Source: an uncultured Acidobacteriota bacterium
GTDB taxonomy: Bacteria > Acidobacteriota > Thermoanaerobaculia > UBA5066 > Gp7-AA6
Reading direction: 5' to 3'
DNA: 64,000 nt
Assembly (NCBI GenBank): GCA_963832145.1
Contig: CAWHTA010000011.1
Coordinates: forward strand, 281,451 to 345,450
In this document: piece by piece, positions 611-48,802 of the stretch
Layout: every line of letters starts with the position of its first letter
How positions within the stretch are numbered: position 1 is the stretch's first letter
Notes under the pieces: generated by a model
Seen by the model: only the letters and a program-made list of their open reading frames with translations
Database searches by the model: none
Told to the model about the DNA's origin: nothing
Program-made: the position numbers and the translations under genes

Positions 611-1885
611 TTGTCTTCCCTCGAGATTCGCGGCGCGGCGAGCCTGGCGACGCCGATCGGAAACACGGCGCGGCGCGGGCGCGAGCAGGGGGAGATCCGG
701 AGAATCCGTGAGCCCGCGGTGCGCGCGGAAGGCGGCGTTCTCACTTTCGTCGGGACGGAGGCGGACTACCGGCGGGAGTTCGGAGGCCGCCCGGCGGACG
801 TTACCGTCGACGCCGCCGGCGGAACCCTCCTTCCCGGCCTCGTCGACGCGCACACGCACCCGGTCTGGACCGGGGACCGCGGCGAGGAGATCGGGCGACG
901 CCTCGCTGGCGAGAGCTACTCGGCGATCGCCGCGGACGGCGGGGGCATCCTCGCCACGGTCCGCGCGACGCGGGCCGCGACGGACGAGCAGCTCGCGTCG
1001 ACTGTCGCTTCGCGCCTCGCCGTCATGCTCCGGCACGGAACGACGACGGTGGAGGCGAAGTCGGGATACGGCCTCACCGTCGACGACGAGATCCGTGCGC
1101 TGCGGCTTCTGCGGAAGCTGGGAGAGGATCCCGACCTTCCCGCGATCGTCCCGACGCTCCTCGCCGCCCACGAGGTTCCGCCCGAATTCCGCGACCGGAG
1201 GGAGGAGTGGGTCCGCCTGATCGCGGAGGAGATCGTGCCGCGCGCCGCCCGCGAGGGCCTCGCGCGCTTCTGCGACGTCTTCTGCGAGGAGGGCGTGTTC
1301 ACCGTCGAGGAGTCCCGCAGGATTCTCGAGGCCGGCCGCCGCGCAGGGCTCGGCCTGCGCGTGCACGCGGACGAGCTCGCGCGCTCGGGGGGCACGCTCC
1401 TCGCGGCGGAGCTCGGCGCGACGTCCGCGGATCATCTGCTCTTCGCCGGCGAGGCGGAGGTCGCGGCACTCGCGCGTTCCGGGACTGTCGCCGTGATCCT
1501 CCCCGGCACGGCCTGGTGGATGCGCTCCCGCCGCGCACCCGCGCGCGCGATGATCGAGGCGGGGGTACCGGTCGCGGTCGCCTCCGACGCGAATCCCGGC
1601 ACCTGCTACACGGAGTCCCTCGCCTCGGTCGCCGCGCACGCGTGCCTCGACTCGGGACTCACTGTGGAGGAGACATTGACCGGCTGCACGTTGAACGCCG
1701 CGGCGTCCCTCGGCCTCGCCGACCGCATCGGCTCACTCGAGCCGGGCAAGGGGGCGGACGTGATCGTTCTCGCGGCGCCCGACGACAGGCACCTCGTCTA
1801 CCATTGGGGCGTGAACCTGATTTCGATGGTGGTGCGACAGGGACGCGTTGTCGCCACCTCAAGCCAAAATGGGGGACAGACTTAA
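611..1885 (+). CDS. hutI: Imidazolonepropionase (histidine utilisation)
   Basis: 424-aa ORF with TTG start. LLPGLVDAHTHPVW metal-binding motif and amidohydrolase-fold pattern typical of HutI. Confidence 0.85.
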   Translation: MSSLEIRGAASLATPIGNTARRGREQGEIRRIREPAVRAEGGVLTFVGTEADYRREFGGRPADVTVDAAGGTLLPGLVDAHTHPVWTGDRGEEIGRRLAGESYSAIAADGGGILATVRATRAATDEQLASTVASRLAVMLRHGTTTVEAKSGYGLTVDDEIRALRLLRKLGEDPDLPAIVPTLLAAHEVPPEFRDRREEWVRLIAEEIVPRAAREGLARFCDVFCEEGVFTVEESRRILEAGRRAGLGLRVHADELARSGGTLLAAELGATSADHLLFAGEAEVAALARSGTVAVILPGTAWWMRSRRAPARAMIEAGVPVAVASDANPGTCYTESLASVAAHACLDSGLTVEETLTGCTLNAAASLGLADRIGSLEPGKGADVIVLAAPDDRHLVYHWGVNLISMVVRQGRVVATSSQNGGQT

Positions 1886-2705: not shown

Positions 2706-2961
2706 GCGTCTCGCCCCTCCTGCTTCCAACCAATTCCAGCCGCTCCGTTTACTCCCTTGCCGCGCGGAGAAAACGCCGCTCTCGTTTGCCGCCCGAGTGA
2801 CGGAAGGCGCGATTCCATTGGGGTTTTTTGCTGAATGGAGGGCTCTCAGCCTCCGTTCGGAGTCAGCGGGGAGGGATCTGACCCCCTCGCGCTCTCGTCC
2901 TTTCCGCCACTCGGCTCGTGGGGGTCAGACCCCATACGCCTCCCCTAGAATCCGAGGCCTC

Positions 2962-45619: not shown

Positions 45620-46102
45620 GTGACCAATCGAGAGTTGTTCCTGAAGTTCTGGGAACGGGAGCAGGGGAAGTTCCAGCGGATGCTCGACGCCGTTCCGGCC
45701 GAACGCGGCGACTACCGGCCGCATCCAAGGTCGCGTACGGGCGCCGAGATGGTCACGCTCCTCGCGCGGGAGCAGGAGATCCTCTGCGGAATGTTCGACA
45801 GTGGCGAAATCGACCTCCGGGATTTCGGCGCCGATCCGATCGACGACATGCGCGCACTCTGGAAGAAGAGCACGAACGATTTGAGGGAGCGTCTCGGGAA
45901 ACTCGATGACAACGGCTGGAAGAGGCCGGTCAGGTTTCTGCTGGGCGGCAAGGTCGCCAACGAGCAGCCCGCGAGCGAGTGGCTCTGGGCATTCCTCCAC
46001 GACATGATTCACCACCGCGGCCAGCTCTCGACGTACATCCGCCCGATGGGTGGCAAAGTCCCGTCGGTTTACGGACCGTCCGCGGACGCGGCGCCCGAAT
46101 AA
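45620..46102 (+). CDS. DinB-family (four-helix bundle, His-triad) protein
   Basis: 160 aa with GTG start. ..HDMIHHRGQLSTY.R..G pattern typical of DinB/YfiT-like proteins. Confidence 0.75.
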   Translation: MTNRELFLKFWEREQGKFQRMLDAVPAERGDYRPHPRSRTGAEMVTLLAREQEILCGMFDSGEIDLRDFGADPIDDMRALWKKSTNDLRERLGKLDDNGWKRPVRFLLGGKVANEQPASEWLWAFLHDMIHHRGQLSTYIRPMGGKVPSVYGPSADAAPE

Positions 46103-46159
46103 AAAGGGGAGAGCGTCGGGCGCCTCACGGCGCCCAACGCGGGATTCCTGTTGACGCCT

Positions 46160-46697
46160 CTACTGGACGGCCCGGAAGGGAAGGTTCAACCGGAACGAAT
46201 CGATGCCGACAGTCGCCGCGGTCCCGTAGACGCCGCGCACCTCGGGCATCGTGTTACAGGCACCCTCCTGCCCGTCGCCGTAAGCGACCCGCAGCGAAAG
46301 AGGCGACAGAACTTCCTGGCCGACGGGGTAGTACAGCAGGTTGCCGACGCGCGTGCCTTCCGCGAACATCGAATAGTGCGGGAAGGTAGCGAGGCCCGCT
46401 GCAGTTCGTCGTCAAGTAGTAAACGTAGATCGCTTCGGAGTCGAAGATTCCGAGACCCGTGTGGACGTAGAAGCTCACCCACTGATTGTTGATCTCACGC
46501 GCGACCAGGTTCTCGGTCACCGTATAGCCAACGAGCGAGCCGTGCCGGTCGATCACGCGGAAGGGGCGATTGCCGGCCGGCGGCACGGCGTAGGCCAACG
46601 AGGAAGTCAGAAGCAACCCGACGATGAAAGCCACCGCGGCGCGCCGGCGATTCTTTCGGCCGCAGTTTCGCAAACCAATGAGAACCCTTGCAGACAT
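46160..46697 (-). pseudogene. Small secreted protein, unknown family, paralog 1 (1-nt insertion near 46379)
   Basis: Start MSARVLIG.. has GGAGG 7 nt upstream. Signal peptide ..LLLTSSLAYA. The frame of ORF 46254-46763 joins ORF 46160-46369. Dropping one base in cccGcac restores YLPHYSMFAEGTRVG, against YLPHSSMFAEGTRVG in paralog 2. Confidence 0.75.
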
Positions 46698-46751
46698 TCC
46701 CAACCTCCCCTTATTTTTTGCGGATGCGCTGAACGCTCTTTGATCAAGACT

Positions 46752-46767
46752 TGCACCTTTCAAGCCA
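46752..46767 (-). promoter_or_regulatory. Sigma-54-type promoter (-24 TGGC / -12 TGCA) for paralog 1
   Basis: Minus strand reads TGGCTTGAAAGGTGCA. GG and GC are spaced exactly as in the consensus TGGCACG-N4-TTGCW. It ends 54 nt upstream of the ATG. Confidence 0.65.
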
Positions 46768-47075
46768 GTCGCAGCGAAAACACGATTTCTTCGTTGGGAA
46801 GGCTCGCATTGCTTTTCGAATGAGATGGAAGCGCTCGATTACTCGTCACGGAACCGCAAGCCCGACCAGTTCGACTAAAGTCTAGGAAGGGAGGGTAATA
46901 TTTAATCCGCTCAGGATTTATTCACCTGGACGACGGTAGGGAGCGATCGGCGGCAGGTCCGCGGCACGATGCTGCGAGAATCGAGTTGCGGGGAGATCCT
47001 CGATCCTTTTTGTCGGCTCCCTACCGCTTTCCGCCGCCGGCTCCCTGCCGACACGAACTCTCTGCGCCGGCGGCT

Positions 47076-47609
47076 TTATTGAACGGCCCGGAAGGGAAGG
47101 ACCAGGCCAAGCGGCTCGAGGTTCATCGTCGCGGTGGCTCCATAGACTTCCGCGATACCGACCGAGGCATAGCAGGGTCCTTCCTCTCCGCTTCCGTAGA
47201 CCACCCGGTGCGATTGAGGAGTCAGAACCTGCTGGTCCGCGGGGTAATACAACCGGGAACCGACCCGCGTGCCTTCCGCGAACATCGAAGAGTGGGGGAG
47301 GTAGCTACCGCCGCTGCAATCCGTGGTCGTGTAGTGCAGGTAGATCGCGTCCGAATCATAGATCCCGAAGGCTGCGTGAACGAAGAAGCTCACCCAAGTG
47401 CCATTGATCTCTCGCGCAACCAGGTTTTCGGTCACTGCGTGGCCCACCAGCGTCCCGTTCCTGTCAATCACTCGGAACGGACGACTGGTGGAGGGCGGCG
47501 CGGCGTGCGCCAGTGACGACGTAAGGACCAGGATCACAAGAGACGCCGAGGCTGCGAGACGATTCGTCTTACAGAAGTCCTGCGAAGCCATCTCACCCCG
47601 TGCACGCAT
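47076..47609 (-). CDS. Small secreted protein, unknown family, paralog 2
   Basis: Start MRARGEMASQ.. has GGAGG 7 nt upstream. Signal peptide ..LVLTSSLAHA. About 60 percent identical to paralog 1 by eye. Shared PFRVIDR.G.LVG..VTENLVAREIN..WVSF.VH, two conserved Cys, and C-terminal LPFRAVQ. Confidence 0.75.
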   Translation of the reverse strand: MRARGEMASQDFCKTNRLAASASLVILVLTSSLAHAAPPSTSRPFRVIDRNGTLVGHAVTENLVAREINGTWVSFFVHAAFGIYDSDAIYLHYTTTDCSGGSYLPHSSMFAEGTRVGSRLYYPADQQVLTPQSHRVVYGSGEEGPCYASVGIAEVYGATATMNLEPLGLVLPFRAVQ

Positions 47610-47660
47610 TTCGCGACCTCCAGTTTTCGGTGATGGATCACACATCCGCGAACGCCCAAA

Positions 47661-47676
47661 TGCACCTTTCAGGCCA
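47661..47676 (-). promoter_or_regulatory. Sigma-54-type promoter (-24 TGGC / -12 TGCA) for paralog 2
   Basis: Minus strand reads TGGCCTGAAAGGTGCA, 15 of 16 positions identical to the paralog 1 element. It ends 51 nt upstream of the ATG. Confidence 0.65.
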
Positions 47677-47872
47677 GACCGCTCACATGCTTTTTCGGAA
47701 CGGCGGGATTGCCTTTCTAATCAGGAGGTAACGATCGGATAGACAGGGCACGACCGCGTGGTTCGAGAACGGTCTGGATTCACCGGAAGCGACGATTCCG
47801 AATCGAATAGCTGAGCTCGGCCCAGTGTCCGTGCGATCCCACTAGAATGCACCGAGACAGAGAGGTAACCCC

Positions 47873-48802
47873 ATGACACACGTTTCTCGACCGCGGCTGA
47901 TCTGCGCTCTCGCACTCTTCGTCGCGACTCGACTGCTCACCGCAGAGGACACTTCCAGCCGGCCGCGCGTGGCGGTACTCGAGTTCAAAAACAAAGTTCA
48001 GGGCTACGGATGGTCCGGATACAAGGCCGGCCAGGCCGCGCAGGACATGCTCGTCACGGAGCTCGTGAGGAAAGGAACCTACCGGGTCATCGAGCGTGAG
48101 CAGTTGGAAGAGATTCTGCGGGAGAAGAATCTCACGCTCGCCGGTGACATCGACCCGAAGACCGCGGTGAAGGTCGGGAAGATGCTCGGGGTCGAATACC
48201 TGATCACGGGTGCGGTGACCGAAATGGGAGTCGCCAACCGCGGCGCGAACGTGCCGGGACTGTTCGGGCGCCTCCCGTCCGTGAATGTGCGGAGCCAGAA
48301 GCTCGACGCCGCTCTCGATGCACGGGCCTTCTCCACCTCCACCGGCGAGATCGTATGGGCCGACACCGCGGCGGAATCGACGTCCGACTCCAGCGTGTAC
48401 GTGCACGGCGCCGGCGGCGGCGTCGAGGACCGCGGCAAGCTCGACCGGATCCTGCGGCCCGTCGTCGTCAAGCTCGCCGACTCCCTCGGCCGGAAGAAGC
48501 TCGCGACGAGTGGACTCGGCGGCACAGCGGATGCGTCCGGCATCGTCGGCAAGATCGCGAAAGCCGGCGGCGGTGCGATTTACGTCAATGTCGGCTCTGA
48601 GGCCGGAATCAAGGATGGGGACGAGTTCGACGTCTTCCGCATCGCCGACGAGATCAAGGATCCGGACACCGGCGAGGTCCTCGGAGCGAACGAGGTGAAG
48701 GTCGGTCGAATCAAGATCCTTGCCGTGCGGGGCGCGCGCCTTTCCTCCGCAGTGGTCGTTTCCGGCAGCGGCTTCAAACCCGGCGACGTCCTCAAGAACT
48801 AG
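47873..48802 (+). CDS. CsgG/HfaB-family secretion-channel-like protein with C-terminal beta-sandwich extension
   Basis: 309 aa with a signal peptide. RVAVLEFKNK...AAQDMLVTELV..G.Y.VIEREQL..IL.E..L......D..TA.K.GK.LGV.YLI.G.VTE core typical of CsgG-like proteins. Confidence 0.75.
   Translation: MTHVSRPRLICALALFVATRLLTAEDTSSRPRVAVLEFKNKVQGYGWSGYKAGQAAQDMLVTELVRKGTYRVIEREQLEEILREKNLTLAGDIDPKTAVKVGKMLGVEYLITGAVTEMGVANRGANVPGLFGRLPSVNVRSQKLDAALDARAFSTSTGEIVWADTAAESTSDSSVYVHGAGGGVEDRGKLDRILRPVVVKLADSLGRKKLATSGLGGTADASGIVGKIAKAGGGAIYVNVGSEAGIKDGDEFDVFRIADEIKDPDTGEVLGANEVKVGRIKILAVRGARLSSAVVVSGSGFKPGDVLKN

What the first reader, a model, noticed from the sequence alone, without database searches (positions are those of the whole stretch)
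46752..47676. Near-identical sigma-54 promoter elements at the same distance upstream of both paralogs
On the minus strand, TGGCTTGAAAGGTGCA (46767-46752) and TGGCCTGAAAGGTGCA (47676-47661) match the sigma-54 consensus TGGCACG-N4-TTGCW. The GG and GC dinucleotides are in exact register, and G7, T13 and A16 also fit. The elements end 54 and 51 nt before the chosen start codons. Conservation of this 16-mer while the surrounding UTR has diverged argues for function. No bacterial enhancer-binding protein (AAA+ with GAFTGA) is encoded in this window, so the activator is unknown.
Basis: seen in the sequence. Interest (0 to 1): 0.6.

Follow-up and report, generated by a model that had tools for sequence, protein, structure and literature searches.

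The report
Conserved sigma-54 promoters before secreted-protein paralogs
Two neighbouring genes for a small secreted protein of unknown function in an uncultured soil acidobacterium are each preceded by what is very probably a genuine sigma-54 promoter, conserved in sister species; this is an ordinary kind of regulatory element, and its activator is still unknown.

Summary
TGGCTTGAAAGGTGCA (46767-46752) and TGGCCTGAAAGGTGCA (47676-47661) lie on the minus strand with GG-N10-GC in sigma-54 register, 54 and 51 nt before SD-preceded ATGs.

- **Genome:** a Thermoanaerobaculia (Acidobacteriota) MAG with an intact rpoN and 12 enhancer-binding proteins. None is in the window.
- **Genome-wide scan:** a consensus matrix finds real promoters (score >=14: 30 sense-intergenic, 1 antisense). 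The two sites score only 12.05 and 11.0. Sites sharing their two deviations (no A at -22, no T at -15) are not enriched, so the match alone is equivocal.
- **Comparison with relatives:** this is the decisive evidence. In 23 non-redundant upstream regions of homologues, chosen without reference to the motif, TGG-N9-TGCA is the only gapped pattern present in all 23 (shuffles: 6-8), while the flanks are randomised.
- **Upstream boxes:** they sit at gaps differing by about one helical turn (30-31/40-41 and 15-16/24-27).

No sigma-70 consensus, Rfam family or CsrA explains the element.

Verdict: a sigma-54 promoter of a weak, activator-dependent type (about 0.8). It is a new member of a known kind, of modest interest. 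An earlier first-reader note covers the same paralogs.

The parts
47661..47676 (-). -24/-12 element of copy A: TGGCCTGAAAGGTGCA (GG = -25/-24, GC = -13/-12)
   Evidence: PWM score 11.0; conserved in homologues
46752..46767 (-). -24/-12 element of copy B: TGGCTTGAAAGGTGCA
   Evidence: PWM score 12.05
47708..47717 (-). Upstream box 1 of copy A, GAAAGGCAAT, 31 nt before the 16-mer (centre about -62). Candidate activator site (inferred).
   Evidence: the box is kept in all 7 class-1 loci at gaps of 30-31 or 40-41 nt
46808..46817 (-). Upstream box 1 of copy B, GAAAAGCAAT, 40 nt before the 16-mer (centre about -72)
47727..47732 (-). GTTACC block upstream of box 1. It is shared with the leader-type (class 3) homologues. 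Function unknown.
47648..47652 (-). Predicted transcription start of copy A (about 47650, 12 nt after the C of GC). Inferred, not measured.
   Evidence: geometry of sigma-54 promoters (established knowledge); no transcript data
46739..46743 (-). Predicted transcription start of copy B (about 46741). Inferred.
   Evidence: as above
47642..47648 (-). CGGATGT at about +3..+9 of copy A. It is conserved in 14 of 22 homologous promoters and absent from copy B. Unexplained.
47076..47609 (-). Copy A coding sequence, 177 aa: signal peptide plus a ~135-aa two-cysteine all-beta domain. No Pfam family.
46160..46697 (-). Copy B coding sequence, interrupted by one extra base at about 46379 (two ORFs, 46254-46763 and 46160-46369)

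Best explanation
Each 16-mer is the core (-24 GG / -12 GC) of a sigma-54-dependent promoter that drives one copy of a genus-restricted secreted-protein gene.

Proposed mechanism: RNA polymerase with RpoN binds TGG..N9..TGCA as a closed complex. A bEBP encoded elsewhere in the genome probably binds the conserved box 30-40 nt upstream (GAAAGGCAAT in this window, GGCGGCCTCAGC in a sister promoter class) on a fixed face of the helix. It remodels the complex using ATP. Transcription then starts near 47650 (copy A) and 46741 (copy B), giving ~41-44-nt leaders with a strong SD. The consistent absence of consensus A at -22 and T at -15 suggests a deliberately weak promoter that depends tightly on its activator.

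Shown: the motif and its register, the rpoN and bEBP genes, the genome-wide behaviour of the matrix, the conservation, and the spacing classes of the boxes.

Inferred: sigma-54 binding, the transcription start site, the role of the box, and the identity of the activator.
For: 1. The register and positions are correct, and the pattern occurs twice against 0.01 expected.
2. rpoN is intact in G000 and in 15/15 genomes of the genus. There are 12 bEBPs, most with a C-terminal Fis-type HTH.
3. The consensus matrix picks out oriented intergenic sites in this genome: score >=14 gives 30 sense, 1 antisense and 4 coding; 12-14 gives 30/2/21. Copy B scores 12.05 and copy A 11.0.
4. There are 23 non-redundant upstream regions of homologues from sister genomes and soil metagenomes. 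They were selected only by the absence of the other leader types. TGG-N9-TGCA is the top gapped 3+4-mer and is present in 23/23; the maximum in shuffles is 6-8. Flanking columns carry 0.1-0.5 bit.
5. Variation inside the element follows sigma-54 preferences: C/T at -23, C>T at -21, G/A at -20.
6. The distance to the ATG varies from ~50 to ~115 nt between classes while the 16-mer is kept.
7. The upstream boxes sit at gaps of 30-31 or 40-41 nt (class 1) and 15-16 or 24-27 nt (class 2). Close relatives differ by 10-11 nt (L097 against L092, L081 against L030).
8. No sigma-70 consensus promoter is found in 45900-48000.
9. G at -15 and T at -22 occur among listed P. putida sigma-54 motifs, such as GTGCAT and GGCT (PMC11997794).
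Against: - There are no transcript data.
- Sites in this genome that share both deviations (non-A at -22, non-T at -15) are barely enriched: 18 sense against 10 antisense.
- The spacer stays purine-rich (AAAG and similar). Positions 5/12 and 6/11 of the 16-mer are complementary in 17/22 and 21/22 sequences. Sigma-54 contacts do not predict either feature.
- GAAAGGT..GCA and the box-1 region look homologous to parts of a structured leader in sister copies that lack the GG/GC register. Part of the conservation could therefore be inherited from another function.
- No bEBP is adjacent in any locus, and none has a matching phyletic pattern.
Confidence: 0.8

Rival explanations
1. The 16-mer is an operator or activator site for another DNA-binding protein, or part of a promoter for another sigma factor. 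Its likeness to the sigma-54 core would then be coincidental.
For: The spacer AAAG is conserved. Consensus bases are never found at -22 and -15. The subclass of such sites is not enriched in the genome. The specific form TGG-N4-RRRR-N-TGCA occurs in intergenic DNA only at these two sites of G000.
Against: The element is not palindromic. The invariant bases are exactly T-GG and TGC-A at the canonical 10-nt separation, in 23/23 sequences. The downstream CGGATGT, which could serve as an ECF-like -10, is dispensable because copy B and L068 lack it. The box-to-element spacing varies by 10 nt, which excludes a -35/-10 pair.
Confidence: 0.08
2. The 16-mer is transcribed as part of a 5' leader from a promoter near the GTTACC / GAAAGGCAAT region and acts at the RNA level. 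It would be a remnant or variant of the structured leader seen in sister copies.
For: Class-3 homologues at the same syntenic locus have a ~110-nt leader with a supported fold (RNAalifold -34 kcal/mol, GC<->AU swaps). Class 1 shares GTTAxC-N8-AGAAGGC and GAAAGGT..GCA with it. In class 1, GCAUUU(CC) after the element can pair with GAAAUGC at the start codon in some copies. There is mini-stem covariation at positions 5/12.
Against: RNAalifold finds no consistent partner for the 16-mer in 15 class-2 leaders (-6.2 kcal/mol) and only a weak one in 7 class-1 leaders (-8.4). TGG is specific to classes 1/2 and absent from the homologous place in class 3. Helical-turn steps in the box spacing make sense for DNA, not for RNA. 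There is no Rfam hit.
Confidence: 0.08
3. The match is chance, preserved only because the two copies are recent duplicates.
For: Both sites are weak-consensus matches.
Against: The two proteins are only ~56% identical. The same core is present in 21 further non-redundant loci from at least 8 other genomes, with randomised flanks.
Confidence: 0.02

Closest known systems
Canonical sigma-54 (RpoN) -24/-12 promoters, consensus TGGCACG-N4-TTGCW (Barrios et al. 1999, recalled from memory; P. putida motifs in PMC11997794)
   Same: T-GG and (T)GC-A are separated by exactly 10 nt, with C/T at -23, C/T at -21 and G/A at -20. The site is intergenic and sense-oriented, 50-115 nt before the start codon. 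rpoN and bEBPs are present.
   Different: -22 is never A and -15 is never T in any of the 22-23 family members. The spacer is conserved and purine-rich. The score is in the lower part of this genome's predicted regulon (ranks 61 and 93 of the sense-intergenic hits).
Weak, strictly activator-dependent sigma-54 promoters of the Klebsiella nifH type (recalled from memory: non-T bases at -15 to -17, dependence on NifA plus IHF; not checked here, the sequence was not found in the paper library)
   Same: Non-T at -15 with TGCA at -12. There is a conserved upstream site whose spacing changes in helical-turn steps.
   Different: The candidate activator site is much closer (centre about -50 to -72) than typical UAS positions (-80 to -150). 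No IHF-like site was recognised. The activator is unknown.
Sigma-54 as controller of the cell exterior (Francke et al. 2011, PMC3162934)
   Same: The product is a secreted protein. Many other high-scoring sites in this genome precede secreted or envelope proteins.
   Different: The family has no known function. The rest of the predicted regulon here looks more like a stress set (Ku, KGG-repeat and BON-like proteins).

Membership tests
sigma-54-dependent promoter | GG and GC dinucleotides separated by exactly 10 nt (-25/-24 and -13/-12) | tested here: met
   kept in 23/23 homologous upstream regions
sigma-54-dependent promoter | Flanking consensus bases (T-26, C-23, A-22, C-21, G-20, T-15, T-14, W-11) | tested here: inconclusive
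   T-26, C-23, T/C-21, G-20, T-14 and A-11 fit. A-22 and T-15 do not, in any family member. Such variants occur among P. putida motifs.
sigma-54-dependent promoter | rpoN encoded by the organism | tested here: met
   PF04552 at 225 bits, 517-aa open frame; present in 15/15 genomes of the genus
sigma-54-dependent promoter | At least one bEBP (AAA+ with GAFTGA loop) encoded | tested here: met
   12 PF00158 proteins above 188 bits; loops are GAFTGA x6, GSFTGA x4, GAFSGA x1
sigma-54-dependent promoter | Score above the genomic background in a whole-genome scan | tested here: inconclusive
   The scores 12.05 and 11.0 lie in enriched bins. The subclass with both deviations gives 18 sense against 10 antisense.
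sigma-54-dependent promoter | Upstream activator sequence bound by the bEBP | tested here: inconclusive
   Conserved boxes occur at helically phased gaps. No binding protein was identified, and no bEBP is adjacent or co-distributed.
sigma-54-dependent promoter | Transcription start 11-13 nt after the GC, and dependence on RpoN | not testable with these tools

The most novel reading that the evidence does not exclude
At one syntenic locus (TPR gene - family copies - DinB gene) of this Thermoanaerobaculia genus, members of one secreted-protein family switch between two kinds of control. One kind is a structured, SD- and AUG-sequestering 5' leader (classes 3 and 4). The other is a sigma-54 promoter (classes 1 and 2). 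The sigma-54 core would have arisen inside the old leader, from its GAAAGG junction plus the GGTGCA arm of a hairpin. It would now work with an unusually proximal activator site (centre -50 to -72) that is locked to one face of the helix. That history would explain the conserved purine spacer and the never-consensus -22 and -15 bases.
Probability: 0.3. Interest if true: 0.5.

Novelty: new member of a known kind. Interest (0 to 1): 0.3.

Why it matters
The finding gives a well-supported sigma-54 promoter pair in Thermoanaerobaculia, an uncultured class of Acidobacteriota for which I found no promoter study in the paper library. It shows that the canonical -24/-12 matrix works in this genome, predicting roughly 60-80 oriented sites. 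It also ties an orphan, fast-evolving secreted-protein family to enhancer-dependent regulation. The wider value is as a natural series: 23 diverged promoters with two box types and one-turn spacing variants. Such a series could be used to study how close an enhancer site can sit to a sigma-54 promoter. In itself, a sigma-54 promoter in front of a hypothetical gene is routine.

Tried and rejected
2. **Sigma-70 promoter as an alternative.** None was found in 45900-48000.
3. **Known RNA family in the leaders.** There was no Rfam hit apart from tRNAs.
4. **CsrA binding to the conserved GGAUGU at the predicted 5' end.** No CsrA gene was found in G000, which is 89.6% complete.
5. **RNA structure involving the 16-mer.** RNAalifold gave -6.2 kcal/mol (15 class-2 leaders) and -8.4 kcal/mol (7 class-1 leaders), with no consistent partner.
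6. **Class-3 motif YGGAAAGGTNGGTGCR as a second sigma-54 register.** It scores 3-7.6, the GG is lost in L067_2152, and its GC lies in a covarying hairpin arm. Rejected.
7. **A regulon sharing box 1, box 2 or the purine spacer in G000.** Only the two sites themselves were found, plus a weak look-alike at C7:16894.
8. **A neighbouring activator.** No AAA+ bEBP lies within 2.5-4 kb of any of about 100 loci.
9. **Activator by co-occurrence.** Ten of the 12 bEBPs have an ortholog in at least one sister genome that lacks the promoter type. One is limited to G000, G002 and G007, and one to G000 alone. None matches the distribution of the promoter.
10. **Function of the protein.** There is no Pfam family. 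All 83 relatives are annotated as hypothetical. The AF2 model has pLDDT 59, and no fold match has E < 0.9.
11. **CsgG-like neighbour as a functional partner.** It is present only in the nearest relatives, so the link is not conserved.

Full report
**Observation**

On the minus strand, TGGCCTGAAAGGTGCA occupies 47676-47661 and TGGCTTGAAAGGTGCA occupies 46767-46752. In both, GG is at positions 2-3 and GC at 14-15. This is the GG-N10-GC geometry of sigma-54 promoters. The degenerate 16-mer, with up to two mismatches allowed, occurs only at these two places in the window; 0.01 occurrences are expected.

The elements end 51 and 54 nt before ATG 47609 and ATG 46697. Each ATG is preceded by a strong SD (GGAGG 47621-47617; GGGGAGG 46710-46704). 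The closest database relatives are 177 aa long, so other gene callers use the same start. In the alignment of the two upstream regions, the block CTGGCYTGAAAGGTGCA is the longest identical stretch. GAAARGCAAT, 31 and 40 nt further upstream, and the SD are also kept.

**Organism and machinery**

The window is C11:281451-345450 of a 3.47-Mb, 67% GC assembly that is 89.6% complete. Record titles of the homologous loci name Thermoanaerobaculia / Acidobacteriota soil MAGs.

- rpoN is present and open (PF04552, 225 bits), and it is found in all 15 genomes of the genus.
- Twelve proteins carry a full sigma-54 activator AAA+ domain. Eleven have a GAFTGA-type loop, and most end in a Fis-type HTH.
- None of them is in the window.

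**Genome-wide scan**

I made crude gene calls from a codon-usage likelihood: 3135 genes, 85% coding. I then scanned both strands with a 16-column matrix built from the published consensus. The column frequencies were set from my memory of Barrios et al. 1999, so they are approximate.

| Score bin | Sense intergenic | Antisense intergenic | Coding |
|---|---|---|---|
| >=14 | 30 | 1 | 4 |
| 12-14 | 30 | 2 | 21 |
| 11-12 | 32 | 11 | 33 |
| 10-11 | 16 | 11 | 55 |

The matrix clearly detects oriented promoters. Copy B scores 12.05 and copy A 11.0. Both deviate from the consensus at -22 (T/C instead of A) and at -15 (G instead of T). Sites sharing both deviations are hardly enriched: 18 sense against 10 antisense. 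On sequence match alone the two sites are therefore plausible but not convincing. G at -15 and T at -22 do occur among P. putida sigma-54 motifs (PMC11997794).

**Comparative evidence**

The protein has a signal peptide and a ~135-aa two-cysteine domain, and it matches no Pfam family. It is restricted to the window's own genus: 10 of 14 sister genomes have it, and 0 of 46 genomes from other genera do. It also occurs in soil metagenomes. I collected 71 unique copies.

Most copies with a -24/-12 element or a class-3 leader lie at one syntenic locus between a TPR-protein gene and a DinB-family gene. The CsgG-like gene that is divergent from copy A is present only in the nearest relatives.

The upstream regions fall into four types.

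- **Classes 1 and 2.** Class 1 has 7 non-redundant sequences, including both window copies. Class 2 has 15. Both carry the 16-mer.
- **Class 3.** These copies have a structured leader with a hairpin UGGUGCR..YGCACCA just before the SD.
- **Class 4.** These copies have a CCGACCAATCTCCTACGACC box about 270 nt upstream of the conserved FRV motif that begins the mature domain.

To avoid circularity, I selected regions only by the absence of the class-3/4 signatures. I then counted every 3-mer/gap 0-15/4-mer combination. TGG-N9-TGCA is the top pattern, present in 23 of 23 regions. The best pattern in shuffled sets reaches 6-8.

Around the element the alignment carries 0.1-0.5 bit per column. Inside it, variation follows sigma-54 preferences: C/T at -23, C>T at -21, G/A at -20. 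The distance to the start codon ranges from about 50 nt (class 1) to about 115 nt (class 2).

**Upstream boxes**

- Class 1 keeps GAAAGGCAAT at gaps of 30, 30, 31, 31, 40, 40 and 41 nt.
- Class 2 keeps GGCGGCCTCAGC at gaps of 15-16 nt (4 sequences) or 24-27 nt (11 sequences).
- Close relatives differ by 10-11 nt (L097 against L092/L125; L081 against L030), so several independent indels of about one helical turn are implied.

This pattern is expected for a protein site that must face the promoter complex. I read the boxes as candidate activator sites centred near -62/-72 (class 1) and -50/-60 (class 2). That reading is inferred.

**Alternatives examined**

- No sigma-70 consensus promoter lies in 45900-48000.
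- No Rfam family matches the leaders.
- RNAalifold gives the 16-mer no consistent partner.
- The conserved CGGATGT at about +3..+9 resembles the end of the CsrA SELEX motif, but no CsrA gene was found. Copy B and L068 lack the motif altogether, so it is not a -10 element.

Some features remain unexplained by sigma-54 contacts. The spacer stays purine-rich. The consensus bases are never found at -22 and -15. Positions 5/12 and 6/11 of the 16-mer are complementary. In addition, GAAAGGT..GCA and the box-1 region appear homologous to parts of the class-3 leader. Part of the conservation may therefore be inherited, and the promoter may have arisen within an older leader.

**The activator**

No bEBP gene lies within 2.5-4 kb of any homologous locus. 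Ten of the twelve bEBPs have an ortholog (73-97% identity) in at least one sister genome that lacks the promoter type. One is limited to G000, G002 and G007, and one to G000 alone. No distribution matches that of the promoter. The activator remains unknown.

**The protein**

The AF2 model is all-beta but of low confidence (pLDDT 59), and fold search gave nothing.

**Verdict**

I put the probability of a functional sigma-54 promoter at about 0.8. The kind of element is well known, so novelty is limited to a new member in a little-studied lineage.

Noticed in passing
window 46160-46763 (-), about 46379: Copy B has one extra base relative to the family reading frame (..YLP | g | HYSMFAEGTRVG..). 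This splits it into ORFs 46254-46763 and 46160-46369. It is either a pseudogene or an assembly error, and its promoter element is intact.
   Followed up: partly
L033:~2830-2960 (-), L032:~1340-1470 (+), and 11 further loci: Sister copies of the family that lack the -24/-12 element carry a ~110-nt leader. The RNAalifold consensus is -34 kcal/mol over 13 unique sequences. It has a helix CUCGGCGGC/GCCGYCGG and a hairpin UGGUGCR..YGCACCA with GC<->AU swaps, plus long-range pairs over the SD and AUG. There is no Rfam match. This is a candidate new cis-regulatory RNA.
   Followed up: partly
L041, L034, L036-L038 and others, ~270 nt upstream of the mature-domain codons: A fourth group of family copies shares a strongly conserved box, CCGACCAATCTCCTACGACCNNAGTCCAATTTT. 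It could be a promoter for another sigma factor or an operator.
   Followed up: no
G000 C7:16.5-21 kb, plus C2:402475, C12:37737, C11:666266, C11:139181: The best-scoring sigma-54 sites of the genome precede genes for Ku, a KGG-repeat protein, BON-like proteins, a PLD/cardiolipin-synthase-like enzyme, a tiny membrane protein and Gly/Gln-rich hydrophilin-like proteins. These identifications are by eye from the sequences, without a Pfam check. The set looks like a stress or desiccation regulon under sigma-54.
   Followed up: partly
window 47873-48802 (+): A CsgG-like lipoprotein gene (PF03783, 1.7e-27) is divergent from copy A. It is present only in the nearest relatives (87% identity in G002 and three metagenome contigs) and missing from the same locus in the other sister genomes.
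   Followed up: partly
G000 C11:738154-739509 and C2:843974-845350: Two bEBPs are lineage-specific. The first has orthologs only in G002 (94%) and G007 (73%, with 4 in-frame TGA). The second (GAFSGA loop) has none in the 14 sister genomes.
   Followed up: partly
G000 C1:256531-256546: A high-scoring -24/-12 match (TGGCACGCCGCTTGCC, score 15.5) lies inside the upstream coding region, 77 nt before the crude-called start of a gene that probably is rpoN.
   Followed up: no
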